The position numbers were made by a program, and so were the translations under genes. DNA of 64,000 nucleotides from Ilumatobacteraceae bacterium (GTDB lineage: Bacteria; Actinomycetota; Acidimicrobiia; Acidimicrobiales; Ilumatobacteraceae): positions 16,224 through 80,223 of the forward strand of contig JBIISL010000002.1 in assembly GCA_044341035.1 (NCBI GenBank), given 5' to 3'. Position 1 is the first letter of the stretch. Every line of letters starts with the position of its first letter. This document shows, in pieces, positions 1 through 53,773 of the stretch. The notes below the pieces were generated by a model that was not told the origin of the DNA, made no database searches, and saw only the letters and a list, made by a program, of their open reading frames with translations.

Positions 1-351
1 TCCTGCAGCTTCTTGTAATGGAAGACCTGCTGGCACTGCCCACACGGCAGCGGCCGGAACACTGATGACTTCAGCATGTGATCCGAATCCCATTGTGGCA
101 ACAACTGGTTGTCCCTTTGTAAATGCGGTGACGCCTTCGCCAACTTCGCGCACAATGCCCGCGGCTTGATATCCGACGATGTGCGGCTTGGTAGCAAGTG
201 CACCGCCAGTTCTGTTGAGTGTGTCACCACCCTGAATTGCAATTACAGCAACATCAATCAAAACTCCGCCTGGGCGTAATTGTGGCTCTGCCACGTCTTC
301 GTACTTCAGGACCTCAGGTCCGCCAGTCTGGTAATAAACAGCAGCTTTCAT
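1..351 (-). CDS. NADPH:quinone oxidoreductase / zinc-type alcohol dehydrogenase-like protein (MDR superfamily). Only the N-terminal part is present; the 3' end runs off the window.
   Basis: Reverse-strand translation from the ATG at the complement of 349-351 gives MKAAVYYQTGGPEVLKYEDVAEPQLRPGGVLIDVAVIAIQGGDTLNRTGGALATKPHIVGYQAAGIVREVGEGV... This is a typical GroES-like N-terminal domain of MDR oxidoreductases. It is absent from the ORF track because the window edge truncates it. Confidence 0.7.
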   Translation of the reverse strand, partial: MKAAVYYQTGGPEVLKYEDVAEPQLRPGGVLIDVAVIAIQGGDTLNRTGGALATKPHIVGYQAAGIVREVGEGVTAFTKGQPVVATMGFGSHAEVISVPAAAVWAVPAGLPLQEAAG

Positions 352-22075: not shown

Positions 22076-22366
22076 TGACTCTCACTGAGAGGATTTTGAG
22101 CACTGTGAGCAAACAAAGAGTGCAACTATTTATATAAGTCCTGCCCGATAAGGAATACAGAGAGCACCTCAACCTCGAGTCAAACTTGAGGGTTTATAAC
22201 TTGCGTGTTTATCCACACCTAAAACTTCGCAAACCCAATCCAGTAACAGGTTTTCAGATTTTTTGTTCTTTTAAACAGCCCTAGGATTTTTAGGGAACGT
22301 CAGACGGAAAGTCCATTCCAGCTGGCGTTTCGTACCAAAAAATCACATCCACGAAGGGCGAACATC

Positions 22367-25300
22367 GTGAAACTTTTAATACTGGGTGGGTCCTTTCCTA
22401 CCCCGACTTCTGCGGCAAGCAGAACGTCGGTCATCAATCAACTCAATCGAGAAGCACGACGTGTAATGCGCGTCGTGCTTGCACTCTTTATTGCAGCTTC
22501 AACTGCACTGCCATTCATGCCGTCAATGATCGCCCTCGCTGACGTCACGAATAACAACAACAACGTTGCGCCTGGTACGAGCAACAACAACAGTTCGAAC
22601 GGATCGCCCGTCGGTACGAACAACACCATCACTCCAACTGTCACACCAGTAACAACTCCTAGCCGCACAACACCGCCCGTTGCGTTGCCATCAGTTCCAT
22701 CTGGACTGTTAGTGGCACCTGATAATCAGAAACTCACGCTGAGTTGGGATACCCCTGACGTCAACGAGAAGATCTCTGGCTACGCAGTGTCGTGGAGTCT
22801 GGACGGACGTACATGGACGCCCAATTCTCAGGCGCGAACATCAACGAACACTTCAGTGGTACTTGAGGGTCTGACGAATGGCGTCGTTGTCTATGTGCAA
22901 GTAGCGGCTATTAACTCATCGGGCACCGGAGGCAGTATCTCTACGTCTGGTATCCCTGCTGCGCTTGCAAGCGCTCCGCGCGGAGCGGCCGTGGTTGCGA
23001 CTCCTGCCAGTGGGGCTCCATATGCGGATGCTGTTCTGGCAAACAGCCCGGCCGGATTTTGGCAGTTTGGGGATGACCCATCACACACCATTGCTGACAA
23101 CTTGGGCACCGGAACCCTGACTGGAATTCCGGCTTTCGGGATGCCAGCGCCGATCGGTGGAATGATCGCGGGGTATCTGCAAGGCAAAGAACTGACATCA
23201 AATGTGTCGGTTGGTGGCTCGTTCACTCTTGAGGGATGGATTAATCCTTCAACGATCAATGGGGATGCCGCAACTGTTGCTCACGTCGGCGACACGACAA
23301 ATGGTTCGTACATGCGAGTGACTCCGAGCGGAGCTCTGCAATTTGTGGGCTTTGCAAATGGTGTCGCTTCAAAGGTGGAATCTGTGCGTGGACTTGTTCC
23401 CTCTGGTAGCTGGTCGTATTTGGTTGCGACATATAGCGCTGGTGAAGTGGTGTTGTACGTGAACGGGGAACGCGTTGGTGCAGGAACCTCTGCTGGAACG
23501 GGTGGCGTATTTGTAATTGGTGGCGCGAACGATTCGGGATTCACATACACAGGTTCTGTTGCCAACTTCGCGGTGTATTCCACTGTGCTGGTCGCATCTG
23601 ATGTGAGTGCGCATTGGACTGCAGCTAACTACCAATTGGGAACAGGAAACATTCCGTCTGCGCGCGCAGGTGACGCATTTGTCATTGTCGAATGGACTTC
23701 ACCGGTTTCTGATGGTGGTTCGCGTATTCTCGGCTACAACGTGCAAGTGAATACTCCTGCAGGTTGGGTTGATGCAATTAGCAATACCTTCTCTTCTTCG
23801 ACTTCGGCATTTGTGACACAGCTGGAAGACGGCACACGTTTGTCGAATGGAACGGCCTACCAATTCCGAGTTCGCGCAGTTACGAGTGTTGGCGCCGGAA
23901 ATGCAAGTGAAGCAGTTACTGCTACGCCACGCGGATTGGCCGCTGCACCAACAGAGTTTGGGGTATCAGTACCGACACTTGGCAATGTGACTTTTAGTTG
24001 GAGTGCACCATTGAATGATGGTGGATTTGCAGTAACCGGATATCGCATTGAGATATCGAGTGACAACTCATCCTGGCGTACATATGCATCGGCAAGTGCT
24101 GACACAACAACATTCACCATGGGAGATGTTGTGACCGGAACTCCATTTGCTGATGAGGTGTACTACTTCCGTGTACGCGCTGAATCTTCAGCTGGTGCAG
24201 GTCAAACTTCTGTAGGTATTTCTGTTGCGCCACTGCGCGTTGAGCAACCTGTACAAACGCAATCTGTTTTGGTAGATAATGGTCAACCGTCTCTTGCGTT
24301 CGCAGGGGAGCAGTCTGTACTGTCCGCCGAGGCAGTAATCATTGAGTCTGTTGTGCGTGCTTATGCAACGGGCGGAGTACCTGGACGCGTTGAGTCGTTG
24401 GTAGCAACTGCAACAAACGGTGGCATCACGTTGACATGGGCTACGCCTACTGATCTTGGCAGTGGCGCCGTTACGTCTTACGTTGTGCAGTCATCAACTG
24501 ATGGCGCCGTATGGACCAATGTGAACGCAAGTGCTACATCGCCGTATGCAATTACTGCATTAACAGCTGGCACTCAGTACGTGTATCGCGTCTATGCCGT
24601 TAATGCAACAGGTACAGGAACTCCTACGTCTGTCATTGCTATAGCTGGTGGAAACACCGCAGGAAACTATGCCTCAGCGCCTACAGGAAGTAACGCGACT
24701 GCAGGATCTATTCCTGTTTCTGGAACTGGCAATACGGCGTCGTACACAACCGCTGTTCTTGCAGATACTCCAACCGGATTCTGGACATTGAGTGACGCTT
24801 CGGGCGCAACTTCAGTTACAGATTCTGGCAGCGCGGGAGTTTCAGGTACGACAACCTCTGTCACCTTGGGTGGAACAACGAACTATTCGCCATTGGCGAC
24901 TAGTCAGTTGGCTGCTTCATTCAATGGAACATCATCAAAGATTGTTGTTCCCGATAATGCCGCGTGGAACAGTAACAATCTGACAGCAGAGGCATGGATC
25001 AAGCCTGCGGCTACCCAAGTTACAAACTGGGGTTCTGTTGTTTCTCGTAACACCGGTAGCAACGGGTGGTGGGTTGAAGTGACTAGTGCAGGTCAACTGT
25101 GGGGTTATGTCAATGGCGTTTCCCTGATTACTGCATCTGGAGTAATCAGTCCGAACAAGTGGCAACACATTGCAATGACATACAACGGCAATGCCATCAA
25201 TTTGTATGTCAACGGCGTTGTTGTGGCAACAATTGCTGCGCCAAACATTGCAACCCAGACTTTAGGAACTCCAATCCAAATTGGCACACGCAACACAACT

Positions 25301-49300: not shown

Positions 49301-52300
49301 ATGTCGCATGTTGCAACAGGCCTCACAAATGGCACGACGTATGTTTTCCGCATCTTGGCAACAAATGCCGCAGGTGCAGGTGCTGCAACAGAGCAAGTAC
49401 TAGCAACGCCGTCTACAACTCCAGGTGCTCCAACTTCAGTGGCAACTGTTGCCGGTGATGGGTTTGTTACCTTGACATGGGTTGCTCCAACTTCAAACGG
49501 TGGTACAACTGTCACGTCGTACCTCATTGAGAAGTCAACTGACGGAACAATGTGGACAACAGCGGCAACAACATCGGCTCGTGAATTTACGGTGACTGGT
49601 TTGGCAAACGGAACTTCATACCGTTTCCGTATCAGTGCAGAAAATGCTGCGGGTACTGGTGCATCGGCACAAGCAAGTTCCACTGTCACGCCAAGTGCAA
49701 AGGCCACGGCTCCAACATCGGTGACTGCGACCCCATCAAATGGCGCAATCGCATTGGCCTGGGGAGCACCAACTGATACCGGTGGTTCTGCCTTGACGGG
49801 TTACATCGTTGAACAAAGTGTTGACGGGGGTATGACATGGACAACCGCAGCAACAACTGCAACACCATCGACATCGCTGACTGGCTTGACCAACGGAACG
49901 ACCTACTCGTATCGAGTTCGTGCGAACAACTCCATCGGGTCAGGCGCTGCATCAACTGTTATGACAACTACGCCGTTCACGGTTCCAGGCGCACCACGCA
50001 ACGTTGCGTCCTTCGCCGGTGATAAGGAAGTTCTTCTCACGTGGGGAGCGCCACTAAACACCGGTGGTTCGGTCATCACCGGTTACGTTGTGCAACAGTC
50101 CACGAATGGAACAACATGGACAACTGTTGAAATGCCATCGGTTGCTTCAACAACAATCACTGGTTTGACCAACGGTACGACCTATTCATTCCGCGTGTTT
50201 GCAGTAAATGCTGCCGTTACAAATATCAATAACATCGCAACATCTGGAGCAACCGCTTCATCTGTTGTAACGGGGATTCCGAAGACAACAGCATCGGCAC
50301 CACAATCGCTGACACCTGTTTCTGGGGATCGTCAGATCTCACTGTCGTGGACAGCGCCAGTTGATAACGGTGGCGTGGCTCTCACCGGTTACAGCGTCCA
50401 GCGTTCAGCTGATGGTGGGCGCACTTGGACAACTGCAGTTTCGACAGCATCTTCAGTGCTGACCGCGACAATTAATGGTCTTACCAATGGCGTTGCATAT
50501 GTATTCCGTGTTGCTGCAATCAATGCGGCCGGTGTGGGCGCGGCAGGTACATGGGTGACAGCTGCACCTGTAGCTGCGCCAGCAGCACCTGCTTCCGTCT
50601 CTGCAACCGCTTCGGCGTCAAGTGCAACTCTGAATTGGTCACCTCCAGTCGACAATGGTGGTGCATCCATTATTGGTTATCGGATTGAGCAATCAGAAGA
50701 TGGTGGATCAACGTGGGGGACCGCCGTCCAATTGGGCGCCACAGTTCAAGCGCAGTCAGTGCGCAAACTGACATTGGATAATGCAGGTCTTTCTACTTCG
50801 ACTTCTTTACAGGTCACTGGCCTTCAATCTGGTCGCTCCTACCTATTCCGTGTGCAGGCGTATTCAGTTGTTGGCGAGAGCCCATGGAATCAAGTTGCAG
50901 TCAAGGTTGGCTTGGCCCCAACTACACCGGGCACACCAAAGTTGACTCCGTCAAAAACTTCAGTTGTGGTGTCATGGGCAGCGTCAACTGCAGCGGGTGT
51001 ACCTAAATACACAGTGCAGCGTTCCAATGATGGCGGCAAGACGTGGACAGATGTGGTGACCACGAGCGAGACGACTATCACTGATGATGGTTTAACCTCT
51101 GACGCTTCGTATTCATATCGAGTATTTGCCGAATATGCGGGCATGACCTCCAGTAAGTCTGGCGCCACCACTACTAAAACTCTGATACCTGCTGAATCAG
51201 TTCCAAATCCAACATTCGAAATCAACTTGGTATTGCGTTCAGACGTGGTTCCCACTTCTCGTAACTTCACTGTTGCAGGTGCAAATTTGAAAGGTGCTTC
51301 TTTAGTGAAGTTGTACCTTGCAGAAGTGCTTGCTACGCCCGCAGTTAACTCCGCGGCACTTCATAGGCGTGTTTTTTCAGCATTGGGTCCTGAAACGCTT
51401 CTTACGACCGCAACCGTAAATAAAGACGGCACGTTTGTGGCAACAGCCAGTTTGCCAGCCTCGCTAGCAAAAGGTAATTACAGAATTACTGCCAGAGGAA
51501 CAGCATTCAATGGTGATCCTGTGACTTCATCTGCTGATTTCGTTGTTCCGGCCGACTGGGCAGAAATTCTTAATCCGTCGACGCCTTCGACTTCAACAAC
51601 TTCAACAACTTCAACAACATCAACAACGTCGACGACTTCGACCACGGTTCCCGCAGTAACCCCGATAGTTCCGCCCAAGGCAACGCCGGGTGGTGCGCCA
51701 TTCGATCCGAAGAGCGATCCGAAGGGCGTCGTTGGTCTCGCTGGTCAAGCAGCGGTGTTAGCTGCATTGCTGGCGGCTGGAGCAGCAAAACGTGGCAAAA
51801 AAGAAGATGAAGAATCAGGCGATGATGAAGATCGCGGTTCAGGAGACATCTCTGATACCGCGGTGAAATTCCGAAAGACTGATGTCGATGGTTCTAACGA
51901 CGCAATTCAGCCACGGACCACACGATGGCTAGATAAGTGGTCATTAAAGTCCCCACACCGTCTGGTGCAATCGTCGCCACTACTTGCTCGTCTTGTTGTG
52001 GATGGAACGTACCTTCGTTCACTGTTGGGCATCTTCTGGTTGGCATTGCCGTTCGCAGGAGTTGTCCTCGGAATCCTTTCCGCAGTAGATACGGAATTCA
52101 ATATTGTGATGCCCGCATTTGCGTTGCTCGTTTCGATCTTAATTTTGGGAATTCTTGATGCGTTCTCTGGTCTTCTTGGAGTACTGGTCTTTGCGGTACT
52201 CGCCGGAATCGGAGGAGGATTCACTTCGTCTGATTCCCTCCGAGGAATGCTGGGACTGTGTGCATTCTCTCTTGGAGTGCCACTGATTGCGACAGCATCA

Positions 52301-53020
52301 CGACCGTTCTTCCGCGCAAGTGATGGAACATCTCAGATTTGGAACCGGACGGTTGACTTCTTCTTGGTCACACTGTTCGGTGCCTTGGCTGCCGGTGGAA
52401 TGTTTGGCTCACTGCCTGGCCTCACCGGCTTCAAACCTTCATATGCAGATCGTGGAGACACGATTCAACTGATTGCTTTAGGAATGCTCATTGTTCGAAT
52501 TGGACTCGAGTATCTCGCACGCAATGCAACGTCGGGACGATTCAAGTCAATTCATCCCGATGAGCTTTCGGATCCTTCGTTGGTGCAGAAAATTACTTCA
52601 ATCATTGGTCGTTCCGCAGTGTTCGCATTTGTCGCCGTTATCTTCATCGGCAATAACTGGGCACTGTGGGTGGGAACAGCGTTGTACATGATTCCAAAGT
52701 TCGTAGATCTCGTGTCCGATAGTTTCTTGAACTTTGCAAAGTTGCATCGCTTCTTGCCTCGAGGCATTTTCAAGGTTGTCTTCATCATGTTTATTGCACG
52801 CTGGTGGGGCTCAGTAGTGGCTGACCAAGTAACCGACCCGGATCAAATGATCAAGGTTGGTTTTGTGCTGCTTGGTCTGCCTGGGCTGATAGCGGGAATC
52901 GCATCTTGGTTTGGTCGAGAAGGCGGCGATTGGAGGAGTTCGAAACTTACACGTGTGCTTGGAGCAGTACTCCTCGTCATCGGAATTCTGATGGTTAGAG
53001 GAGTTCTCTTCAACTTCTGA
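22367..53020 (+). CDS. Giant (10,217 codons) surface protein: signal-like N-terminus, about 87 fibronectin-III-like modules, 3 LamG-like domains, an Ig-like domain, and a C-terminal polytopic membrane anchor
   Basis: One open frame of 30,654 nt. N-terminal hydrophobic segment MRVVLALFIAASTALPFMPSMIALA|DV. Modules of about 95 aa repeat the FN3 hallmarks (L[TS]W..P..[DN]GG..I.GY.[IV]E.S.DGG.TW ... GLTNGT.Y.FRV.A.N..G.G). The start is ambiguous: GTG 22367 (GAAGGG 8 nt upstream) or ATG 22466, just before the hydrophobic segment. Confidence 0.95.
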   Translation: MKLLILGGSFPTPTSAASRTSVINQLNREARRVMRVVLALFIAASTALPFMPSMIALADVTNNNNNVAPGTSNNNSSNGSPVGTNNTITPTVTPVTTPSRTTPPVALPSVPSGLLVAPDNQKLTLSWDTPDVNEKISGYAVSWSLDGRTWTPNSQARTSTNTSVVLEGLTNGVVVYVQVAAINSSGTGGSISTSGIPAALASAPRGAAVVATPASGAPYADAVLANSPAGFWQFGDDPSHTIADNLGTGTLTGIPAFGMPAPIGGMIAGYLQGKELTSNVSVGGSFTLEGWINPSTINGDAATVAHVGDTTNGSYMRVTPSGALQFVGFANGVASKVESVRGLVPSGSWSYLVATYSAGEVVLYVNGERVGAGTSAGTGGVFVIGGANDSGFTYTGSVANFAVYSTVLVASDVSAHWTAANYQLGTGNIPSARAGDAFVIVEWTSPVSDGGSRILGYNVQVNTPAGWVDAISNTFSSSTSAFVTQLEDGTRLSNGTAYQFRVRAVTSVGAGNASEAVTATPRGLAAAPTEFGVSVPTLGNVTFSWSAPLNDGGFAVTGYRIEISSDNSSWRTYASASADTTTFTMGDVVTGTPFADEVYYFRVRAESSAGAGQTSVGISVAPLRVEQPVQTQSVLVDNGQPSLAFAGEQSVLSAEAVIIESVVRAYATGGVPGRVESLVATATNGGITLTWATPTDLGSGAVTSYVVQSSTDGAVWTNVNASATSPYAITALTAGTQYVYRVYAVNATGTGTPTSVIAIAGGNTAGNYASAPTGSNATAGSIPVSGTGNTASYTTAVLADTPTGFWTLSDASGATSVTDSGSAGVSGTTTSVTLGGTTNYSPLATSQLAASFNGTSSKIVVPDNAAWNSNNLTAEAWIKPAATQVTNWGSVVSRNTGSNGWWVEVTSAGQLWGYVNGVSLITASGVISPNKWQHIAMTYNGNAINLYVNGVVVATIAAPNIATQTLGTPIQIGTRNTTAMNFFSGLISNVALYNTALSDARIQNHVQAGGYAANTVSAPTVIAGDGVATLTWTAPAYANGAITGYEIQTAPAISGGAVANVSVWTTVATSTATSSTVSQTMAASGGTSFRVRAVTSNGAGQWSIPAQTYVFSNPTPPTNLSATSSSNNQVTLTWVAPITTSSRFTIQTITGYRIETSSNGGVTWSTITPSTGSTALTYVIDGVANGVSRLFRVAALTASTTGAFASISVTPGAVASSPRNFTATGTGDGSLSLSWTAPLNTGGSPILSYILDYCTSAGCTASIVIDSGVPASATSYNVTGMLNQQGGITFRLRAVTASGTGDAATVVGRTAPQVSAPNALTAVADVTWEGLSNQAYLTWSAPTLLYGQTVVGYQYEQSSDGGATWIVLNNLITSSTLAAYVQGLSAGTTYQFRVAARTSQGLGLYNYVSVTPTGSSTYSGSIASAPVNLRATVDGASTVLLTWAAPTYTGGLPLLGYRIKYLSTVDPAAATTGVVDTLVPAGVTSYRLSGLPTGSNYFVRVTPVTAVGEGNYAAVGFVQYDTPSSPRTLTSTPGDGTVTLAWTTVGTTGGYNVYGYRVEQSGDGVNWTVLTLDTSALSFTARGLNNGSTYQFRVAAVTAVGIGDYANIVSTPFAVPNAPLNLIATPGNEQVTLTWTAPANNGSAITQYIVETSVDQGSTWSETARVVGATNTTFTHTGLFNGGQHGVNWYYMYRVRAVNNAGTGPVSTSAQTNPGNTPSSVAALDGTAYNSMVHLTWTCCLGDTSRGSYYVGPSLAVVAYRIEQSTDGGATWQFILDRPVAYSWVRISALRNGVAYQFRVSAINSIGVGTPSVITVTPSTTPDSPTNMAVVTTASGTSATATVTWTAPVTDGGLPLTGYRVRWCATANCNPTTVISEALSPTTYSFVVSGLSTGTPYNISVEARNANGFSVYQTQIPVFPVGLPTAVTALTTSVANTVTITNPDGTTGTGTYLTVSWTEPNATSGIPVFYKVELSADSGSTWTTLTDETTSLEQRWAPNPALAGTQVQFRVTPTNFAGTGPSTTVTASVPLQSIAGPPSKPSPPTLLSAMRGDQQVTLSWALPVATGGLPVTGYKVEYSSSSSTTGFITINNNTATSPFVITGLTNNISYWFRVSAVSAAGTGTTAITATVVNGAPAAPSAFAYTATANAQSTLSWTAPSTSSTGGAMAGLNGYRIEQSIDGGSIWTLLTASTSAVASGITVTPPATGVTIRYRVAAIADGQRGDWAYVSATGTSTLAGVLALSATATSNSVTLSWGAPAGGAAVSGYKIERCLYSGTTCGAYTLLVASQTGLTYPDTTPVYGSVYGYRVTANSTANLASILPVHVVGSPGSVTGLVSTPGSEIVDLAWVAPTQSPAPVILGYRVEICSSACASSSAVWTFLRDGGTSLAAHIDGLTNGVSYTIRVVARNAWGLSTPVTTTFTPRGAPASPGTLTATPGNRQVTLNWTTPTNNGGSPIIGYKVEYGTNSAFAGLNVVSSLSDPNSTSFVVTGLNNATSYWFRVSAVSGVATSAGQLTSAIPVGVPTAPVSATVTTTLTVRNALFVNWGAPSNNGGSAVVGYRIEQSTDGTNWTTAVANTGTTTQWSARGLTNGQAYQFRISAMNSNGYGTPTTVSGTPMFAPSIPLNQNVIAGDRRATVSWSAPADNGGSPISGYRIEACVESSANYCTNAGVFAVVNANTGLVNSYTMTGLTNGTLYGIRVYAINDVDMNSYQYAYEYLLVRPSSTPIAPNTTYTTTGNRYVILNWGGATANGYVITGYKVEQTADNGATWTTISTSVSGTTVPETLRINGLTNGVVYGYRVSAISYAGVGLPSGIAYGTPRMTTSAGVPNLRATVGDSRISLTWSSPTDTAGAAIVGYRIEYVAAGTTTVVTENTLSLSTNYTVFGLTNGISYTLKVYPVTSNGYTNAGEVVARPQTIAQAPREFMSVWGDRQVSLRWTAPAAAGANVDQIFGYKLEQSTDGATWSPMATVNPSVVSYVVTGLTNGVNYSFRISMVTTVGQGASSVTSSTPFGTPSAVQDLVGIGGDRKVDLSWNAPADLGGGNVVGYRVFIYCASGSDSGVGTGCGPYTVNTYTLIAANISPAQRSLTVNGLINGTNYLFLVQPLTGVNTALNTWITCEGYFRDGQSAPLATDTARCSQYSRVLWITPMGSPSAPKGLNVMTAPSGSSTKASVTATLTWTAPDWTGGDYINGYRIEQSTDGMTWTTLTANTGYRLTLTYTVAGLVPGTRYLYRVSAIGSLGAVGVGSVVTTGSLVASDAPQGLVITRVNNSNTAQLSWTAPAYTGGSSVIGYKIERLLSAVWYVVTPNTGNTNTTFTIDGHDAGTALNVRVSAVTSAGAGDTAMAILEVGGVTNGGLRFTTTVGNGFADIGWSGTAAFTPTSYKMEYRVVGNAIWTLVTADMGATTSYRLGGLSNGVSYEVRVTPIYTVSGVTSYGTASNTFIVPANVASAPANLSATTGNAMTTLTWTAPADLGGGSVIGYKIEQSTTSATTGYVVLTANTGSNALSYDVRGISNGTQHWFRVSAITTLTAGVAGATSFVSVTPVLPGRAVGTISAAPGNTTALLTWSAPQYDDVNTDFIGYRIERSTDGINFTTLSANVGKVLTYTATGLTNGTPYWFRIVTLGQLVDGGSSVISTVPAAYSAKLGSLTATISDRTVTLNWTRPADTGGLPLIGYMISRCYYAASTYCDMSSTNYWYYYWSHSFRGINDAITGIAFVGPDATSFTFNADTADFYRVVPVTGTGVWIGTTGSTYSNFPNASMVYAAWWGVPSQVNGMKITTNSPGGVGAANSMLYFDWTAPTILGNGTISGYDVEQSNDGGLTWISLGRTKLTNQYVSGVSAGTSVVLRVRAVNEYGVGPWSSVTSSWAANPTSPRTPNITVVGGRMTFTWASPENTSAMGVQGYEVQYNLAGTWNTYTGTGAGFTATSLQWNAPDNTYYTNMQWRVRTVTVNAANTTLYSDWATASGNILGTANAPYTTVTPANGNVTLNWNAPTDLGGGTLMSYRVDHSTDGVTWVADGTTTLTSMVVRGLTNGTNYRFRVTPVTTQGDGTAAVLTGTPFGPSSAPSLLRANSGDGFVTVNWNVPTNSGGLPIAGYQIDLCTFASCTWTTYVRNSGSASTNTYTFSGLTNGTRYQARVSAVTGACDETLTDTVASCNYYGATVLSTPATVPSAPQSITASVTTNTYGVPTASGTVTLNWAAPASTGGQTIYGYMLEQSTDAGTSWTVINANLGTNDGVPLLTATLTGLIPGTVYTYRVTPLTSEGMGASSTTSIVAPSWPATSTVPNMVGGAVVTTTATAITVTWRTPVAPLPTGYKVEISAVGGTFVAAWGTWAGQTTSANMAATTTTVGAGVTSVTIVGSAGSPTSLTTGASKYVRITPTNAAGSATATVVNATPMSIATAVRPTSATAGDSQVALVWAAPTSNGGFVVNSYRMEYSTDGAPWTTLTLDASGTSYTVKGLTNGTPYTFRMAAITSAGLGAWGTFTSVTPARIPLSPLNIVVTGGDKRATLSWAAPTSNGGSAITGYAIYRNNVLITTVSASTLTYVDTNSTTGLTNGTSYYWSVRAVNAIGESVSSNVYGTPYSQIGAPTGVLAVRGNRQVTVSWTAPANTTGFTLTGYQVERSVNGSTWTLDSMVTASPVTITNLTNGVIYYFRVTAYVNGGPSASPGGLGVVSAAASATPMTAATAPTSFTAISGNGSVALSWSAPQDPGGAPVSAYQINQCLVVLGGAQCNVAGQYSTIVTSTNSTGTTYTVSGLTNGSTYYFTVSAITSFGVGTASYIYATNATPGTTPTAVQALDALPGDGRSMVTWTAPASNGGYTLMGYKVERSSDNGTTWVLLNISTNYTYYNDTSVMNGVTYTYRVSAQNALGYGTPMTTAVIPFGPAAAPANLSTVAGNAQATINWSVPSVDGGTAILGYKVEQSTNNSTWTVLSANAGLGTSFVATGLTNGTPYYFRVTAVTAFATNTSSTATALPLATATAPTSFAASIDATGGVVLTWAAPSSNGGSAISYYVVQRSTNGSTWVDVAQPSGLTTTVNGLTLGTGYSFRIAAITSVGTGSYATASATPVSNPGAPQNLVASIDANGVVTLTWATPANNGGSAIVGYAIERCNNTQNSCTPATVVTTTCPSTTAFCVVNANNGGSTTAVVQPTAGSTVMTFAVTTLTSVNSATGLATSRQVSGGLITVVVPQLTVTTTASAPTNLVATAGNASTSLAWTVPSSLGSPVPGSYTYTLQRSTDNSNWTTVSSTITSATLTYSDTGLTNGTVYYYRIAAVSSAGTGAYAATSARPFTTASAPASITAALQDAAVLITWTAPTSTGGLSVTNYVLDVCTTSAVACVAGASTGFTTVSGTVPTDSLSYVVSGLTNGTQYWFRVRAVTSAGNGTGIVATATPGGAPSAVVALTTTAANTGNVALSWTAPATNGSAITGYKVEMCTANCATNGTFTLLGTTTALTPFVSSPLPNFTCTSITACSANAGLAGLINGTSTTFRVSAINAIGTGYGSLAVAVPFTLAASPTGSAGTITANPTNADNYGASVTTDAPTLWYRLNNASGATAVTDASGTPRTSTVGSSVTFNGNAGSPFGGTSGSATFNGAAGSAAAYPTVAPTTPINLAGAISTLSGNDLKISGSVTLEAWIKPAAGASNRWQTIVSRGNSGVSTRNYGLFINGSQVYFGFNTSAGLQGAFTQSGVAEASVWSHLVGVFDQTTGLVRIYVNGQLQASAFATQSGALVTSAVGEVLIGNSYNADAPTPFFAGQMSEVAIYNKAVTGARILAHYNASGIAAQGKTAPSVTPNGSSLTLNWTAPTNTGGLAITGYKIDYVLPSTAIAANTGAAWSVLIADIGSTSTTYTLNSAVTSALGQGYMFQVSAITSAGVGASSLPVGPIGTAAAPSEPRSFAAVGGTAQVALTWTAPASTGGLTVSGYTIERSADNGITWTSVGATTASSPFVTGAVPGFTCSAIAACIDGTTAMLPGASFQYRIAAITPAGNSSYSVASAGPANTVTALLAVAGNAQVSLSWDIMPTTAGQTVAGYFVEYCTGTCTATTGTYTAVTAIAGAPTNGTTPNSYITATGLTNGTIYTFRVRAVYGASNTRGPAVIVTGMPVASAQISVQLLNSTASTTTMALNWLAPVAVVGNTIAGYLVEYCAANCGVAGATFTTATPVAGTPTGATTTLLSYNIAGLTTNNTYAFRVTPVLVAGSTGVASPSVVFDTPTASVDAPTAMQAAGRLNSVYVSWAPPATRGGYPILGYRVEYRVNNTGNWVTATTNSYSSTPNYAVAGLTAGVTYGFQVTALTAAGPGATSAPVTGVPFGAAAAPTNLRASASSGQAAIQWETPTSNGGNTITGYRIESSVDGGTTWSDEVANTNSVATAYTLTGLDNGVTVLIRVSAVTSAGSGQVSNVAPAIPSAPASAPTNVSAIVGNAQAVLTWTAPADTGGLPVTGYMIERSADGTTWSTVTANSGNPVPASVQSGLTNGETYQFRISAITAGGTGVASAPFTVKPYTTPSAPTSFVAQPSDGQITMTWGVPAVDGGAVVSDYRVEQSLDGGITWTAAATSTGGTRQATITGLTNGTPILLRVFALNTAGVGTPTQSISTSAYTIPAAPNALVASGANASVLLSWTAPTNTNGSPVSGYKVERSIDAGTTWTVAIANTGNSGTNVVVNDLTNGTAYAFRVSAINAAGAGDASGSTGATPMTTASAPTAVTGTGGDTTATISWSLPTIDGGTAITDYNVERSSDGGVTWTSVASNIVGTSYSDTALTNGITYLYRVSAVNAAGTGSSSAGVAVVAAARAGASTGLVATSGSGSVILSWVSPTDTGGAAITGYFIEISEDSGDTWATAIANTNTSAAFAVVSNLAEGQLYSFRISAINAAGIGTTSTNVDGTPVIVSSVVLSGTANSENVSLTWTAPTDIVQTGYVVEKSADGITWTPAMLNPGANATSGTASGLTNGTVYFFRIQVVTAGGPASSYSNYLALVPRGLAGAPSALTAVAGDTQVTLRWVAPVSDGGTAISGYKIEYSANAGTSWTTATATTGNQAVLYTVTGLTNATAYTFRVSAVNAVGAGTASATAAGTPFTIPGTSNSVTTTAGTAQVVLNWVAPASNGGSVITAYVVQMTSDGGATWSTLTASTTALTYTATGLTNGTTYAFRVAAKNLAGTGVTTNPVTSTPFEAPNAPTALSAVAGDTSVSISWTAPTNVASTAIVGYKVEKSANAGTTWSIATANTASNLTNYTVTGLTNGTAYALRVTALISAGPGAASASVNATPFGVPSAPQSIVVVSSDSQVTISWAAPVSNGGSVLTGYIVQISTDGGATFTDAVTTTSTSVSIGSLTNGTSYVFRVVAVNAAGNGIVSGTTSGTPFTSPGAPTSPQAVGGTNEVVLSWTAPSSTGGSALVGYRIERSSNGGTSWTTVVSNTGSTATAFTVGNLSAGVVYTFRIAAVTNGGFGTYSVNFTGSAVGLATAPGSLTANAATSQVTLSWTAPTSTGGSTVATYVVEKSADGGVTWSTVTTAATGTSYVVTGLTNATTYSFRVSAVNASGAGISSAPATATPFTTPDAPTGLSVIAATSQAVLVWTTPASDGGTSITGYKVEQSTDGGTTWTSLVANTGSASTVYVVSGLTNGSAYRFRVSAINSAGIGIASTIATATPSGTATAPRSLIATASDGQVALAWVAPSSTGGNPVTGYSIEVSSNGGTSWTTLIADTASTTTSYSATGLSNGTTYAFRVSAININGVGAVSSPASAAPFTTPGQVPAITTTAGNAQVLLSWTAPTTDGGGAISGYKIERSADSGATWSTLTANTNSAATNYTASALINGTVYSFRVSAVNGAGTGTASSSETATPFAGAAAPTALSATPSSTQVVLSWTAPSATGGSAIVGYRIESTVNGGTSWSIVVADTASTATSYIAIALTNGQQYGFRVSAINGAGVGVASAVATSTPFTVASAPVSVVATPADTQVLLTWVAGASNGASITGYVIEFSSDAGATWSTVSANTNSGLTRYTVIGLTNGMSYTFRVAGINQAGTGTSTSSSATVPAGAPSAPLSLVVAPGNTAATLTWTAPSTDGGSPIIGYRIERSVNSGATWTIVVADSASSSTSYTATGLTNGASYNFRVSALNAVTVGASSLAGSVVPAGVPVAPTSLSATATNTAVVLVWTRPLNDGGNAIVGYLVETSSDGGANWTTAIANTNSTVTSTTVTGLTNGSLYSFRISGINAVGSGAASTVITATPASVPTVAQNLIATASNGQVELSWTAPATNGGSSVTGYRIERSTDGITWNTISSGTAATTYTVTGLTNGSTYMFRLAATNAIGDSAMTAAVTASPAASATAPQTFVATVGDRAATLTWAAPASNGGMPVLSYVIERLNSDGSTWAAEASGVVGYGYSVTGLTNFVGYMFRVAAITTSGKGAWATMSSPVTPFRAPPSPETPAVPDAPTAVTTTVESGQTSIVWTTPASDGGAAISSYIVERSTNGGTSWTTVANTMATSFIATGLTNGATYIFRVTAANSVGNGLPSVMAVVTPATLAAAPTNISISTGNGLLSFSWLAPASTGGMPVVSYVVETSATGTSGWNTASTGSPSTSLVIDGLTNGTPLHMRVAAVTAIGQGAWATAVGTPSIGAVAGISTNVVATPGAGQVALTWTAPVAKGGSPITGYLIEKSLDGNSWMVVTSNTGSSLTSYNVTGLANGTTTYLRVSAINGAGSGLPTGAVTVTPLTTANAPQTLIATAGNTQASLAWVAPTDNGGSAITGYTIQVSSNSGATWSNMANVVGTSYTATGLTNGTSYAFRVLAINAGGAGSASAPDVAVPFATSSAVRNLLVAVADSQVTASWTAPLSNGGSAISGYRVAYSTDNGTTFSADTVVNGTTAVITGLTNGSAVVVRVIPVNAAGNGASTSSAAATPRTVAAAASAVVATAGNGQVSLSWVAPTDNGGSAVTGYYVERAVGAGGLWTRIATVTTMSHVATGLTNGTTYVFRILATNAAGAGAATEQVLATPSTTPGAPTSVATVAGDGFVTLTWVAPTSNGGTTVTSYLIEKSTDGTMWTTAATTSAREFTVTGLANGTSYRFRISAENAAGTGASAQASSTVTPSAKATAPTSVTATPSNGAIALAWGAPTDTGGSALTGYIVEQSVDGGMTWTTAATTATPSTSLTGLTNGTTYSYRVRANNSIGSGAASTVMTTTPFTVPGAPRNVASFAGDKEVLLTWGAPLNTGGSVITGYVVQQSTNGTTWTTVEMPSVASTTITGLTNGTTYSFRVFAVNAAVTNINNIATSGATASSVVTGIPKTTASAPQSLTPVSGDRQISLSWTAPVDNGGVALTGYSVQRSADGGRTWTTAVSTASSVLTATINGLTNGVAYVFRVAAINAAGVGAAGTWVTAAPVAAPAAPASVSATASASSATLNWSPPVDNGGASIIGYRIEQSEDGGSTWGTAVQLGATVQAQSVRKLTLDNAGLSTSTSLQVTGLQSGRSYLFRVQAYSVVGESPWNQVAVKVGLAPTTPGTPKLTPSKTSVVVSWAASTAAGVPKYTVQRSNDGGKTWTDVVTTSETTITDDGLTSDASYSYRVFAEYAGMTSSKSGATTTKTLIPAESVPNPTFEINLVLRSDVVPTSRNFTVAGANLKGASLVKLYLAEVLATPAVNSAALHRRVFSALGPETLLTTATVNKDGTFVATASLPASLAKGNYRITARGTAFNGDPVTSSADFVVPADWAEILNPSTPSTSTTSTTSTTSTTSTTSTTVPAVTPIVPPKATPGGAPFDPKSDPKGVVGLAGQAAVLAALLAAGAAKRGKKEDEESGDDEDRGSGDISDTAVKFRKTDVDGSNDAIQPRTTRWLDKWSLKSPHRLVQSSPLLARLVVDGTYLRSLLGIFWLALPFAGVVLGILSAVDTEFNIVMPAFALLVSILILGILDAFSGLLGVLVFAVLAGIGGGFTSSDSLRGMLGLCAFSLGVPLIATASRPFFRASDGTSQIWNRTVDFFLVTLFGALAAGGMFGSLPGLTGFKPSYADRGDTIQLIALGMLIVRIGLEYLARNATSGRFKSIHPDELSDPSLVQKITSIIGRSAVFAFVAVIFIGNNWALWVGTALYMIPKFVDLVSDSFLNFAKLHRFLPRGIFKVVFIMFIARWWGSVVADQVTDPDQMIKVGFVLLGLPGLIAGIASWFGREGGDWRSSKLTRVLGAVLLVIGILMVRGVLFNF
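23018..23640 (+). other. LamG/concanavalin-A-like jelly-roll insert 1 of the giant protein
   Basis: PYADAVLANSPAGFWQFGDDP ... FTLEGWINPS ... GSVANFAVYSTVLVASDVSAHW. This start/middle/end pattern recurs in all three inserts and matches what I know of Laminin_G_3-type domains. Confidence 0.7.
24740..25400 (+). other. LamG/concanavalin-A-like insert 2
   Basis: SYTTAVLADTPTGFWTLSDASG ... LTAEAWIKPA ... GLISNVALYNTALSDARIQNHV. Confidence 0.7.
38998..39750 (+). other. LamG/concanavalin-A-like insert 3
   Basis: NYGASVTTDAPTLWYRLNNASG ... VTLEAWIKPAAG ... GQMSEVAIYNKAVTGARILAHYN. Confidence 0.7.
41050..50900 (+). repeat. Regular, cysteine-free sub-array of about 34 FN3-like modules (period about 288 nt)
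   Basis: From ...DAPTAMQAAGRLNSVYVSW... to ...SYLFRVQAYSVVGES, each module follows the same template: AP..L.A..G..Q..L.WTAP...GGS.ITGY.IE.S.DGG.TW......T.....T.TGLTNGT.Y.FRVSA.N.AG.G. Confidence 0.8.
51577..51647 (+). repeat. In-frame 9-nt tandem repeat (ACTTCAACA-like units) encoding STSTTSTTSTTSTTSTT
   Basis: tcgacgccttcgacttcaacaacttcaacaacttcaacaacatcaacaacgtcgacgacttcgaccacg, read directly. It lies between the Ig-like domain and the first C-terminal TM helix. Confidence 0.85.
51728..53017 (+). other. C-terminal membrane module of the giant protein: a TM helix, a charged acidic linker, then a domain of about 10 hydrophobic helices
   Basis: VVGLAGQAAVLAALLAAGAA followed by KRGKKEDEESGDDEDRGSGD. 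From about 52020 onward there are successive hydrophobic stretches of about 20 aa (LLGIFWLALPFAGVVLGILSAV, IVMPAFALLVSILILGILDAF, GLLGVLVFAVLAGIGGGF, ... VLGAVLLVIGILMVRGVLF). I found no LPXTG-like motif. Confidence 0.75.
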
Positions 53021-53059
53021 TGTAGTTGCCTACACTATTGACGAGTAATAGGAGACTTT

Positions 53060-53461
53060 ATGAGCGTGCCATTGTTTGTAGCAACAGAAATTGGTCACAC
53101 CTTGCTCGATGAAAACACGTGGATGCCCACAGTCACCATTGATGTATCGCAGTCGCCCGAAGTTGCAGACCTTGCGCGAGTGCACGCTGTAGAGGGAATA
53201 GGAAATGTCAGTACCCACGCAATTCGCGAAGATGACACCGTTCTAGTTGGAGTGCAATTGACAATTCCGGTGCAGGCGACATTTGCGGTGGCTTTTAGTT
53301 ATGAATTACACCGAGAGTTTCTGAATGAAGTAGCAGATGCAGGCAGTCTTGTATTCGCAACAACAGATACGGAAACCGCGCACGAAGAGCGTCCACTGTG
53401 GCTTAGCGTTGACATTGACGGAGCCGCCTTACGTCAAACGTTGCGCGTCAATAACGATTAA
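53060..53461 (+). CDS. Small acidic hypothetical protein (133 aa, no Lys, no signal peptide), probably co-transcribed with the giant gene
   Basis: Strong SD (TAGGAGAC) 5-6 nt upstream of ATG 53060. It lies 39 nt after the giant-gene stop with no hairpin between them. No family recognised. Confidence 0.6.
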   Translation: MSVPLFVATEIGHTLLDENTWMPTVTIDVSQSPEVADLARVHAVEGIGNVSTHAIREDDTVLVGVQLTIPVQATFAVAFSYELHREFLNEVADAGSLVFATTDTETAHEERPLWLSVDIDGAALRQTLRVNND

Positions 53462-53677: not shown

Positions 53678-53727
53678 TACTTAACCGATTACTGGCGAAA
53701 AAATTTCCGTGCGGTGATGAATCGGTT

Positions 53728-53757
53728 CATCCCACTACTTAAGGAGGTAGTGGGATG
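53728..53757. other. Perfect 11-bp stem hairpin (CATCCCACTAC / GTAGTGGGATG, 8-nt loop) nested in further repeats
   Basis: Read directly. The loop plus the 3' arm contain AAGGAGG followed by a 4-codon mini-ORF (ATG AAA CGA AAC TGA). An 8-bp inverted pair (AACCGATT 53684-53691 / AATCGGTT 53720-53727) and a 10-nt direct repeat of CACTACTTAA (53676, 53733) flank it. Confidence 0.5.
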
Positions 53758-53773
53758 AAACGAAACTGATTGC

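What the first reader, a model, noticed from the sequence alone, without database searches (positions are those of the whole stretch)
22367..53020. Uninterrupted 30.65-kb gene encoding a 10,217-residue FN3/LamG surface protein (nearly half the window)
There is no stop codon for 30,654 nt in one frame, and the translation is coherent throughout. The order is:
1. signal-like N-terminus;
2. Asn/Thr/Pro linker;
3. about 87 FN3-like modules;
4. three LamG-like lectin-type inserts within the array;
5. an Ig-like domain;
6. an STT linker;
7. a membrane anchor.
This places it among the largest bacterial proteins. At the usual length of about 3.5 nm per FN3 domain, the extended array would be on the order of 0.3 micrometre, which is cell-scale. 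I recognise no dedicated secretion system (T1SS, T5SS, T7SS), sortase or glycosylation genes in the window, so export presumably relies on Sec. Function is open: adhesion to particles or polysaccharide, a spacer or protective fibril layer, or a phage or grazer decoy. Module similarity is at the motif level. I did not see long identical nucleotide repeats, which argues against an assembly artefact.
Basis: partly seen in the sequence, partly recalled or inferred. Interest (0 to 1): 0.9.

Follow-up and report, generated by a model that had tools for sequence, protein, structure and literature searches.

The report
Giant membrane-rooted FN3 fibril protein
A single 30.65-kb gene of a freshwater actinobacterium (family Ilumatobacteraceae) really does encode a 1-megadalton, roughly cell-length surface fibre of 87 FN3 modules and three lectin-like domains, and it ends not in a simple anchor but in a conserved, uncharacterised 10-11-helix membrane domain that defines an unnamed family of actinobacterial surface proteins.

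Summary
ORF 22367..53020 (+) is open for 10,217 codons. It contains 87 FN3 modules and three Laminin_G_3 inserts (after modules 1, 4 and 48), followed by an Ig-like domain, an (STT)n/Pro linker and membrane segments.

It is neither an assembly artefact nor a pseudogene:
- The modules are only 35% identical on average (maximum 60%).
- There are no long nucleotide repeats.
- Independent assemblies are collinear at both ends.
- dN/dS against an Ilumatobacteraceae MAG ortholog is about 0.09 over 1,384 residues of the array, with no indel.

The last ~430 residues are a conserved module: a juxtamembrane PFDPxSDPK motif, TM1, a basic cluster, a cytoplasmic DRGSGD(V/I)SD motif and a ~370-aa polytopic domain. 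AlphaFold2 models the polytopic domain at pLDDT 92.7. It has no Pfam or NCBIfam hit, no PDB sequence hit, and no Foldseek match at E <= 0.001 (best 0.44; TM-score at most 0.22).

About 650 clusters (50% identity) carry this domain, almost always at the C-terminus, behind variable Ig/FN3/lectin ectodomains of 0.5 to 2.8 kaa. The named members are all Actinomycetota.

Best reading: a Sec-exported, membrane-rooted, lectin-tipped fibril. The activity of the root domain is unknown. I rate it a new variant of a known kind, of moderate interest.

The parts
22142..22366 (+). Conserved upstream leader or promoter region with three conserved hairpins. Its function is not established.
   Evidence: It aligns at nucleotide level with the regions upstream of orthologs L010, L011 and L012, whereas sequence further upstream does not align. 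The RNAalifold consensus has 40 pairs, only 2 of them compensatory, with n = 4. The MFE z-score is -2.59. There is no Rfam hit.
22367..53020 (+). The whole giant gene: 10,217 codons plus stop, about 1.03 MDa, pI 5.6.
   Evidence: dN/dS is 0.10 against L001 over 2,006 aligned codons.
22367..22540 (+). Signal peptide with a long conserved n-region (aa 1-58). It runs from the GTG start through a 33-aa extension (..SVINQLNREARR..) and the h-region VVLALFIAASTALPFMPSMIALA to the predicted cleavage site ALA|DV.
   Evidence: The GTG and an upstream GA(A/G)GGG box are conserved in four orthologs. In L012 the internal ATG (codon 34) is CTG, so it cannot be the start there. P0335 carries the same extension. 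The cleavage site is inferred by eye; SignalP was not run.
22541..22675 (+). Asn/Thr/Pro-rich low-complexity linker (aa 59-103).
   Evidence: Read directly from the sequence.
22676..22945 (+). FN3 module 1 (aa 104-193).
   Evidence: Self-HMM. Pfam fn3.
22946..23638 (+). Insert 1, containing a Laminin_G_3 (ConA-like lectin/glucanase fold) domain (aa 194-424).
   Evidence: PF13385, E = 8.5e-21.
23639..24634 (+). FN3 modules 2-4 (aa 425-756).
24635..25396 (+). Insert 2, containing a Laminin_G_3 domain (aa 757-1010).
   Evidence: PF13385, E = 5.4e-28.
25397..38917 (+). FN3 modules 5-48 (aa 1011-5517). This is the more divergent part of the array and holds most of the paired cysteines.
   Evidence: Forty of the 41 Cys lie in the ectodomain as 20 close pairs between aa 1254 and 6165 (modules 7-52 and two gaps between them).
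38918..39751 (+). Insert 3, containing a Laminin_G_3 domain (aa 5518-5795).
   Evidence: PF13385, E = 8.8e-25.
39752..51172 (+). FN3 modules 49-87 (aa 5796-9602). Modules 53-87 are more uniform (42% mean identity) and contain no cysteine.
   Evidence: Modules 73-87 are collinear with L001, with no indel.
51173..51574 (+). Membrane-proximal Ig-like beta-sandwich (aa 9603-9736).
   Evidence: AF2 strands with pLDDT 79-88. Foldseek's best hits are Ig-like adhesin repeats (6xi3, RbmA, SiiE) at E about 1e-3 to 3e-2. A domain at this position is conserved across the family. It is the most divergent part against L001, at 58% identity.
51575..51727 (+). (STT)6 and Pro-rich linker ending in the conserved juxtamembrane motif PFDPKSDPK (aa 9737-9787). 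It probably spans the cell wall.
   Evidence: Sequence. The motif is conserved in relatives. An [FY][DN]P-type motif is present in 159 of 273 relatives.
51728..51784 (+). TM1 (aa 9788-9806), directly followed by the basic cluster KRGKK.
   Evidence: Hydropathy 1.97. Aligned in relatives.
51785..51913 (+). Predicted cytoplasmic charged loop with the conserved motif DRGSGD(I/V)SD(T/V)AVK (aa 9807-9849).
   Evidence: The location is inferred from the positive-inside rule.
51914..53017 (+). Conserved C-terminal polytopic domain (aa 9850-10217): two amphipathic helices followed by about 10 membrane helices. Nearly invariant polar residues include D9931, R10044 and E10048, and the motif SRPxRR.
   Evidence: AF2 pLDDT 92.7, pTM 0.89. 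No Pfam, NCBIfam or PDB sequence hit. Best Foldseek PDB match E = 0.44, TM-score at most 0.22. 650 clusters carry the domain. It is C-terminal in 294 of 307 relatives. dN/dS 0.079. No internal repeat.

Best explanation
The window carries one real, functional gene of a freshwater Ilumatobacteraceae (Acidimicrobiia) bacterium.

Its product is made with an N-terminal Sec-type signal peptide that has a conserved long n-region. About 9,700 residues are threaded across the cytoplasmic membrane (inferred). Translocation stops at TM1, and the C-terminal ~370-residue polytopic domain is then inserted into the membrane (inferred).

The result is a fibril rooted in the cytoplasmic membrane. A Ser/Thr/Pro linker and one Ig-like domain cross the wall. 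Beyond them, 87 FN3 modules form a stalk about 0.3 micrometre long. Two ConA-like (Laminin_G_3) domains sit near the distal N-terminal tip and a third sits at mid-length.

The most likely role is glycan or particle binding at a distance from the cell, that is an adhesin or capture fibre (inferred from the domain types and their positions).

The root module is the defining, conserved part of an unnamed Actinomycetota family. It consists of the Ig-like domain, the PFDPxSDPK motif, TM1, a basic cluster, the DRGSGDVSD loop and the polytopic domain. Its invariant polar residues and its conserved cytoplasmic motif argue that it does more than hold the protein in the membrane. Its activity is unknown.
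For: A real gene under selection.
- The ORF and its chance probability.
- Against the Lake Mendota Ilumatobacteraceae MAG contig L001, residues 8219-10217 are collinear at 78.6% identity.
- pN = 0.13 against pS = 0.65, so dN/dS is about 0.09 in the FN3 part and 0.08 in the polytopic part. There is no indel across 1,466 aligned residues.
- N-terminal orthologs (92%, 75% and 71% identity) are also collinear.

Not a repeat artefact.

Domains.

Extracytoplasmic ectodomain.
- A signal peptide is present.
- Forty of the 41 cysteines lie in the ectodomain as 20 close pairs.
- The basic cluster follows TM1.

The root module is a conserved family.
- 60 close homologs.
- 650 clusters at E <= 1e-3, 306 of them at E <= 1e-30.
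- The domain ends within 15 residues of the C-terminus in 294 of 307 relatives.
- The ectodomains vary: Big_3_5, Big_13, fn3, MBG/NIDO, L-type lectin.
- Complete members with signal peptides range from about 534-558 aa (P0191, P0058) to 2,758 aa (P0179, FN3 plus lectin).
- The named members are Actinomycetota: Ilumatobacteraceae, Solirubrobacteraceae and Dactylosporangium.

Unknown fold and family.

Conserved polar residues and motifs.
Against: - There is no expression, localisation or binding data of any kind.
- Topology and export route are inferred from sequence rules only. SignalP and DeepTMHMM were not available, and the kinked helix pair at aa 9918-9948 leaves the helix count (10 or 11) and the loop sides ambiguous.
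- Laminin_G_3 is a broad fold family, so glycan binding is not demonstrated.
- No full-length ortholog exists in the databases searched. Every relative is cut by a contig end or scaffold gap, so conservation of the total module number is unknown.
- dS is near saturation, so the dN/dS value is approximate.
- No conserved neighbouring genes give functional context.
Confidence: 0.62

Rival explanations
1. The C-terminal module is only a passive, extra-strong anchor. Ten or eleven helices simply resist pull-out of a 1-MDa fibre, and the domain has no other activity.
For: The domain is always C-terminal, behind surface-type ectodomains of any size. It has no recognisable catalytic or transporter family signature and no internal repeat of the kind typical of transporters. 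No conserved partner genes were found.
Against: A passive anchor would not be expected to keep invariant or nearly invariant Asp, Glu and Arg residues (D87, R200 and E204 in domain numbering) and Pro/Gly positions across about 650 clusters that fall to 25-30% identity. Nor would it keep a conserved cytoplasmic DRGSGDVSD motif. Members with a single Ig domain (about 534-640 aa) carry the same large domain, although they bear no large load.
Confidence: 0.22
2. The module acts as a sorting or processing device in cis. The PFDPxSDPK motif, TM1 and the basic cluster would be a tripartite sorting signal. The attached polytopic domain would cleave it or transfer the ectodomain to the wall, or release it, as exosortase, archaeosortase or rhombosortase do in trans.
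For: The motif-helix-basic cluster arrangement is conserved immediately upstream of the polytopic domain. An [FY][DN]P-type motif is found in 159 of 273 relatives. No sortase gene and no C-terminal LPXTG are present.
Against: No Cys, Ser or His is conserved that could serve as a nucleophile; the conserved polar residues are D, E and R. There is no similarity to exosortase, rhombosortase or any NCBIfam sorting-system model or to any PDB fold. No member was found with the signal and the polytopic domain split into two genes; the apparent short or split forms were frameshifts or scaffold gaps. Any type I stop-transfer helix has this general shape.
Confidence: 0.08
3. The protein is a sensor. The long tether transmits mechanical load or ligand binding to the polytopic domain and its cytoplasmic loop, an analogy to polycystin-1 or adhesion receptors.
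For: The general layout fits: a long Ig-type ectodomain, TM1, a conserved cytoplasmic motif and a conserved multi-helix bundle with buried charged residues.
Against: This is an analogy only. No channel, kinase, GGDEF or other signalling domain is present. There is no fold match to channels or receptors. No conserved signalling gene lies next to family members.
Confidence: 0.06
4. The ORF is an assembly artefact (collapsed or chimeric repeats) or a decaying, non-functional gene.
For: It is highly repetitive at the motif level. All database relatives are fragments.
Against: No repeat exceeds motif-level identity and modules are at most 60% identical. Orthologous modules (80% identity) are far more alike than paralogous ones. 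Both ends are collinear in independent assemblies. pN is much lower than pS. There is no stop in 10,217 codons.
Confidence: 0.02

Closest known systems
Ebh / Embp giant surface proteins of staphylococci (from my own knowledge, not tested here beyond domain content)
   Same: They are about 1 MDa and about 10,000 aa, from a monoderm bacterium. They have an N-terminal signal peptide with a special extended n-region (YSIRK type), a rod of about a hundred repeated modules some hundreds of nm long, and a C-terminal membrane-spanning segment followed by a charged region instead of an LPXTG sortase signal.
   Different: Ebh repeats are helical FIVAR/GA modules, not FN3. Its anchor is a single helix, not a conserved polytopic domain. 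No FIVAR, GA or DUF1542 matches occur here. There is no sequence relationship.
RTX-type giant adhesins exported by T1SS (MpIBP, LapA, SiiE); knowledge of the family is from memory
   Same: The design principle is the same: a long stalk of about 50-120 Ig-like modules that projects ligand-binding (lectin-like) domains far from the cell. The Ig-like domain of the tail has weak Foldseek hits to such repeats (6xi3, 2yn3).
   Different: The polarity and the machinery are opposite. Those proteins are secreted C-terminus first by T1SS, are retained by an N-terminal plug in the outer membrane, and carry RTX repeats. Here there is an N-terminal Sec signal and a C-terminal membrane root. There is no RTX nonapeptide, no HemolysinCabind match and no T1SS gene.
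LPXTG/sortase-anchored Gram-positive surface proteins
   Same: N-terminal signal peptide, repeated Ig/FN3-type stalk, Ser/Thr/Pro wall-spanning linker, hydrophobic helix plus basic cluster.
   Different: There is no LPXTG near the helix; the only LPxTG strings lie inside FN3 modules at aa 1854, 2069 and 6454. The helix is not C-terminal but is followed by 410 more residues. There is no sortase in the window.
Giant predicted proteins surveyed in metagenomes (West-Roberts et al., bioRxiv 10.1101/2023.11.21.568195) and Giant1-5 of Apilactobacillus kunkeei (PMC12863079)
   Same: These are very large, mostly extracellular, repeat-rich predicted proteins that fragment short-read assemblies. Actinobacteriota are named as a phylum rich in such genes.
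   Different: The Omnitrophota giants carry many transmembrane regions and SecA-like domains along their length. This protein has one clean architecture with a single C-terminal membrane module. I found no description of this module in the papers searched.
Polycystin-1 (analogy only, from memory)
   Same: A very long ectodomain of Ig-like repeats followed by a C-terminal bundle of about 11 helices.
   Different: There is no sequence or fold similarity. It is eukaryotic. No GPS or PLAT domains are present.

Membership tests
Fibronectin type III domain (Pfam PF00041) | Significant match to the fn3 profile above the gathering score. | tested here: met
   E = 6.8e-295 with 35 stretches and E = 0 with 42 stretches in the two halves, against a cut-off of 25 bits. 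The self-HMM delimits 87 modules.
Laminin_G_3 / ConA-like lectin-glucanase superfamily (Pfam PF13385) | Significant match above the gathering score (27.6 bits). | tested here: met
   Three domains score 75.1, 98.5 and 88.0 bits.
Laminin_G_3 / ConA-like lectin-glucanase superfamily (Pfam PF13385) | Carbohydrate binding by the domain. | not testable with these tools
   This needs glycan arrays or structures with ligand.
LPXTG sortase substrates | An LPXTG-type motif immediately before a C-terminal hydrophobic helix and basic tail at the end of the protein. | tested here: not met
   There is no LPxTG or LAxTG within the last 3,000 residues. The helix at aa 9788-9806 is followed by 411 residues. 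There is no NCBIfam sorting-signal hit.
LPXTG sortase substrates | A sortase gene in the genome. | tested here: inconclusive
   None is present in the 64-kb window. The rest of the genome was not available.
T1SS RTX adhesins | RTX nonapeptide repeats, a C-terminal secretion signal, and adjacent ABC/MFP/TolC genes. | tested here: not met
   The regex GGxGxDxUx finds no match. There is no HemolysinCabind match. The ABC proteins in the window are soluble ABC-F types.
Tat substrates | A twin-arginine motif of the type RRx[FGAVML][LITMVF] before the h-region. | tested here: not met
   The n-region has RRVMRV (RRAMRV or RRALRV in orthologs). The position after the first hydrophobic residue is Arg. 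The consensus is recalled from memory.
Unnamed actinobacterial 'C-terminal polytopic root' family (defined here) | A ~370-aa polytopic domain matching the family profile and lying at the extreme C-terminus. | tested here: met
   The window's domain seeded the searches. Relatives score up to E = 1e-244, with 650 clusters found. The domain is C-terminal in 294 of 307 relatives.
Unnamed actinobacterial 'C-terminal polytopic root' family (defined here) | The upstream elements: an Ig-like domain, a Pro/Thr linker, the [FY][DN]PxS[DE]P motif, TM1, a basic cluster and the [DE]RGSG[DE][VI]SD cytoplasmic motif. | tested here: met
   All are present in the window protein and aligned with relatives. The motifs are conserved mainly in the closer clade: 159 of 273 and 125 of 307 relatives.
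Exosortase / archaeosortase / rhombosortase-like processing enzymes | Profile match and a conserved catalytic Cys (or a Ser/His pair). | tested here: not met
   There is no Pfam or NCBIfam hit. No Cys, Ser or His is among the nearly invariant columns of the broad alignments. One Ser is invariant in the closer 39-sequence alignment. No fold match was found.

The most novel reading that the evidence does not exclude
The conserved C-terminal module (juxtamembrane motif, TM1, DRGSGDVSD loop and the ~370-aa polytopic domain of unmatched predicted fold) would be a new kind of actinobacterial surface-protein root with an activity of its own. That activity might be assisting export or assembly of its own ectodomain, processing it at the PFDPxSDPK motif, or coupling the cell-length tether to the cytoplasm. 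If so, it would be a sortase-independent display system spread across Actinomycetota, and this 10,217-aa protein would be its largest complete member seen in these searches.
Probability: 0.25. Interest if true: 0.75.

Novelty: new variant of a known kind. Interest (0 to 1): 0.52.

Why it matters
Freshwater Acidimicrobiia (the acIV lineage, a label from my own knowledge) are abundant, small planktonic bacteria. Here one of them spends 30.65 kb on a single gene for a fibre about 0.3 micrometre long, which is of the order of cell length. If their genomes are about 1.5-3 Mb (from my own knowledge), that is roughly 1-2% of the genome. The gene is kept under strong purifying selection, with no indel over 1,466 aligned residues. 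This implies that the fibre's length and each of its modules matter for fitness, for example in particle or polymer capture, cell spacing, or interactions with grazers and phages.

The practical gain is twofold:
1. The window supplies a complete gene model for a gene that breaks every assembly found in the searched collections.
2. It shows that the constant part of the family is a well-modelled membrane domain that no curated library describes. That gives a concrete, experimentally tractable target, because short family members of about 540-640 aa also exist, for learning how these monoderm bacteria display proteins without LPXTG/sortase.

Tried and rejected
1. Internal ATG (codon 34, nt 22466) as the true start. 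This was suggested by the annotated start of ortholog P0337 and by mostly non-synonymous differences in the extension. I rejected it because in L012 that codon is CTG, while the GTG at 22367 and its GA(A/G)GGG box are conserved in all four orthologs.

2. Short, stand-alone or ectodomain-less family members (P0021, P0050, P0317, P0329, P0320, P0332). These turned out to be artefacts of scaffold N-gaps, frameshifts in Pro-rich linkers, or miscalled starts. The upstream frames encode signal peptides and Ig/FN3 domains.

3. Known family or fold for the polytopic domain.
- Pfam at E <= 10 and NCBIfam at E <= 1 gave nothing.
- Pfam on 76 relatives gave nothing.
- PDB sequence and profile searches gave nothing for the domain.
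- Foldseek against PDB gave only Ig hits with the whole-tail model, and a best E of 0.44 with the high-confidence domain model.
- No AlphaFold DB library was available.

4. Internal duplication in the polytopic domain (the transporter-like inverted repeat). hhalign of the two halves gave a probability of 1.5%.

5. Conserved gene neighbours. None was found. The SRPBCC gene next to the start of the gene in the window lies downstream of the gene's end in L001, and contexts differ in L002, L003 and L010.

6. Riboswitch or known RNA upstream. Rfam gave no hit in the window. There were no sigma-70-like promoter or terminator matches beyond chance.

7. An exact-pattern scan of metagenome contigs for the leader hairpin gave 0 hits.

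8. Literature on this protein or domain. Nothing specific was found.

9. The window's own source record. Its beta-lactamase product is not on record.
Full report
1. THE OBSERVATION

At the window's base composition a stop is expected every 22 codons or so. The chance of an open run of this length is about 1e-207, and the other five frames over the same DNA carry 263-552 stops each. The product is about 1.03 MDa with pI 5.6. Thr, Ala, Gly, Ser and Val make up 60% of the residues.

2. ANATOMY

Array and inserts. Pfam fn3 matches 35 and 42 stretches in the two 5,000-residue halves. A profile iterated on the protein itself delimits 87 modules of about 90 residues, separated by 3-10 residue joints. 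Three long gaps interrupt the array: after module 1 (aa 194-424), after module 4 (aa 757-1010) and after module 48 (aa 5518-5795). Each is a Laminin_G_3 (ConA-like) domain with a ~90-130 residue lead-in, at E = 8.5e-21, 5.4e-28 and 8.8e-25. Two lectin-type domains therefore sit near the N-terminal end and one sits at mid-length.

Cysteines. Forty of the 41 cysteines lie in the ectodomain as 20 close pairs (i to i+1..19). All fall between aa 1254 and 6165, in modules 7-52 and two gaps between them. None is in modules 53-87. This pattern is what disulfide-stapled loops in an extracytoplasmic protein would give (inference).

N-terminus. It reads MKLLILGGSFPTPTSAASRTSVINQLNREARRVMRVVLALFIAASTALPFMPSMIALA|DV, followed by an Asn/Thr/Pro-rich linker.

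Tail (aa 9603-10217). It contains, in order:
- a beta-sandwich (AF2 pLDDT 79-88), whose best Foldseek matches are Ig-like repeats of large adhesins, RbmA and SiiE at E about 1e-3 to 3e-2;
- an (STT)6 plus Pro-rich linker;
- the motif PFDPKSDPK;
- a hydrophobic helix (aa 9788-9806);
- KRGKK;
- an acidic loop containing DRGSGDISDTAVK;
- about 370 residues with two amphipathic helices and about ten membrane helices.

3. IS IT REAL?

Modules share 35% identity on average and 60% at most. Modules 53-87 are more alike (42%) than modules 1-52 (31%). At DNA level only motif-sized stretches recur, 35-79 nt and mostly 60-75% identical. Repeat collapse or chimerism is therefore not expected.

A scan of 185,579 species-representative genomes with the tail found one locus, L001, a contig of an Ilumatobacteraceae MAG from Lake Mendota. 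Its open frame runs off the contig start and is collinear with window residues 8219-10217 at 78.6% identity.

Codon comparison gives pN = 0.13 against pS = 0.65. dN/dS is about 0.09 in the FN3 part, 0.08 in the polytopic domain and 0.15 in the linker/loop. The Ig-like domain is the most divergent part at 58% identity. Across 1,466 aligned residues, covering modules 73-87 and the first part of the Ig-like domain, there is not one indel. Orthologous modules are thus much more alike than paralogous ones. The array is old, stable and under purifying selection module by module.

N-terminal orthologs of 92%, 75% and 71% identity exist as well. All are cut by contig ends. No full-length relative is present in the collections I could search.

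4. START CODON AND LEADER

I first suspected that the internal ATG (codon 34) was the true start. I withdrew that for two reasons. In ortholog L012 that codon is CTG. The GTG at 22367, preceded by GA(A/G)GGG, is conserved in all four orthologs, and so is the 33-residue extension in frame. The signal peptide thus has a conserved long n-region.

The ~225 nt upstream are also conserved at nucleotide level and can form three conserved hairpins (MFE z = -2.59). With four sequences only two pairs show compensatory change, so this remains an aside. Rfam has no match anywhere in the window.

5. THE C-TERMINAL MODULE IS A FAMILY

The tail finds 60 homologs in the 5.8-billion-protein collection. Those that carry names are called 'hypothetical protein' or are named after their FN3 part. 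An exhaustive HMMER scan of 1.84 billion cluster representatives finds 650 clusters at E <= 1e-3, 544 at E <= 1e-10 and 306 at E <= 1e-30. Among 307 retrieved proteins with the complete domain, it ends within 15 residues of the C-terminus in 294.

What lies in front of the domain varies:
- Big_3_5, Big_13, fn3 or ALK/LTK glycine-rich domains;
- MBG plus NIDO in a cultured Dactylosporangium (P0295, 1,419 aa);
- FN3 plus an L-type lectin domain in a complete 2,758-aa protein with a signal peptide (P0179);
- a single small Ig-like domain in complete proteins of about 534-640 aa.

Named sources are Actinomycetota only: Ilumatobacteraceae, Solirubrobacteraceae, Dactylosporangium and 'Actinomycetota bacterium' MAGs.

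Apparent members without an ectodomain, or 'short' versions of the close relatives, proved to be artefacts of scaffold gaps, frameshifts in Pro-rich linkers, or miscalled starts.

The juxtamembrane motif, TM1, the basic cluster and the cytoplasmic [DE]RGSG[DE][VI]SD motif align across the closer clade and occur in 125-159 of about 300 relatives.

6. WHAT THE POLYTOPIC DOMAIN IS NOT

- It has no Pfam hit even at E <= 10 and no NCBIfam hit at E <= 1.
- None of 76 relatives has a Pfam match there.
- Sequence and profile searches of all PDB chains give nothing for it.
- With a 76-sequence alignment AlphaFold2 gives a confident model (pLDDT 92.7, pTM 0.89). Foldseek against 350,542 PDB chains returns no match at E <= 0.001; the best is E = 0.44, with TM-scores of 0.22 or less.
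- The two halves are not related to each other (hhalign probability 1.5%), so the usual transporter-type internal repeat is absent.

Nearly invariant positions are Asp, Glu, Arg, Pro and Gly: LDAxxG, SRPxRR, WxRxxD, RxxLE. No Cys, Ser or His is conserved in the broad alignments that would suggest a sortase-like or rhomboid-like nucleophile.

I could not search predicted-structure databases of cellular proteins. 'No known fold' therefore means 'none among solved structures'.

7. SURROUNDINGS

The neighbours are ordinary metabolic and housekeeping genes:
- two ABC-F proteins, RF3, a patatin/EF-hand protein, GH3 and GH2 glycosidases, galK, galT, two GFO/IDH/MocA oxidoreductases and an SRPBCC protein upstream;
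- a beta-lactamase-fold protein, a CotH/LTD protein with DUF4956 and VTC genes, and a sulfatase downstream.

No secretion system, sortase or glycosyltransferase is present. G+C of the gene (0.50-0.54) is close to that of the flanks (0.47-0.52). Gene order around relatives is not conserved, so no partner gene can be proposed.

8. HOW IT MOST LIKELY WORKS

Shown: the architecture, its conservation, the purifying selection, the family, and the lack of any known anchor or secretion signature.

Inferred:
- Sec-dependent export started by the extended signal peptide.
- Stop-transfer at TM1, with the basic cluster and acidic loop in the cytoplasm.
- Insertion of the polytopic domain.
- The Ser/Thr/Pro linker and Ig-like domain spanning the wall of this monoderm.
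- A stalk of 87 x ~3.5 nm, about 0.3 micrometre, presenting ConA-like domains at its far end and middle.

I commit to a membrane-rooted, lectin-tipped adhesin or capture fibril. My confidence is about 0.85 for the localisation and architecture and about 0.45 for the binding role, 0.62 overall.

For the root domain, I consider an active role (assembly/export help, processing or signalling) somewhat more likely than a purely passive anchor, because polar residues and a cytoplasmic motif are conserved even in members with one small ectodomain. None of the specific activities has direct support.

9. COMPARISON AND NOVELTY

In design the protein works like the giant stalk adhesins: RTX adhesins such as MpIBP, LapA and SiiE, and most closely the staphylococcal Ebh, which is also about 10,000 aa, Sec-exported and held by a C-terminal membrane segment (from my own knowledge).

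It is not a member of any of those families. There is no RTX repeat, no T1SS, no LPXTG at the C-terminus, and no FIVAR or GA modules.

Proteins over 10,000 aa are documented in several phyla including Actinobacteriota, with maxima above 85,000 aa (bioRxiv 10.1101/2023.11.21.568195). Size alone is therefore not novel.

What is new is the complete gene model for this lineage, and the recognition that its root is a widespread, unnamed, confidently modelled membrane domain with no solved relative. I rate it a new variant of a known kind, interest 0.52.

Noticed in passing
window 22142-22366 (and L010 9665-9901, L011 355-571, L012 1665-1901): The ~225 nt upstream of the giant gene are conserved at nucleotide level among four orthologs of 71-92% protein identity. 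They can form three conserved hairpins, including CCTCGAGT-CAA-ACTTGAGG at about 22173-22191. MFE z = -2.59, but only 2 compensatory pairs with n = 4. There is no Rfam match. This could be a promoter or leader element for a 30-kb transcript.
   Followed up: partly
window 22367-22465: The signal peptide has a conserved 33-residue N-terminal extension (..SVINQLNRE.RR..). A 27-nt stretch (TCGGTCATCAATCAACTCAATCGAGAA) is invariant in three of the four orthologs. It recalls the extended signal peptides of very large autotransporters and the YSIRK signals of Gram-positive giants (a comparison from memory).
   Followed up: partly
window 25397-40900 (aa 1254-6165): All 40 ectodomain cysteines come as 20 close pairs, and all lie in modules 7-52 and two gaps between them. 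The more uniform modules 53-87 have none. This suggests two sub-arrays of different age or mechanical design.
   Followed up: partly
L002, L004, L005, L006, L009 (database relatives): Many 'short' proteins of this family in public collections are fragments created by scaffold N-gaps or by frameshifts in Pro-rich linkers. Gene callers then fill the skipped giant ORF with small spurious minus-strand genes.
   Followed up: yes
L010 and L011 (both GCA_026393575.1): One MAG holds two different N-terminal fragments of this gene, 75% and 92% identical to the window. This means either a strain mixture in the bin or two paralogous giant genes.
   Followed up: no
window 21278-21826 (-) versus L001 10956-11489 (-): The SRPBCC-type gene lies just upstream of the giant gene's start in the window. 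In L001 its 71%-identical homolog lies 5 kb downstream of the giant gene's end, so the giant gene or its flank has been rearranged between relatives.
   Followed up: partly
window 56535-60550: A CotH-kinase protein with two lamin-tail domains (884 aa, - strand) sits next to DUF4956 and VTC-domain genes (+ strand). I recall this trio recurring together in bacteria, linked to polyphosphate.
   Followed up: no
window 53021-54086 and 55282-56076: About 1 kb downstream of the giant gene has no convincing gene; a 133-aa ORF at 53060-53461 has no family hit and no homolog in the fetched loci. A 264-aa ORF at 55282-56076 has no Pfam or NCBIfam match either.
   Followed up: partly
window 6212-7801: A patatin-like phospholipase fused to EF-hand calcium-binding motifs (529 aa), an uncommon combination in bacteria.
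   Followed up: no
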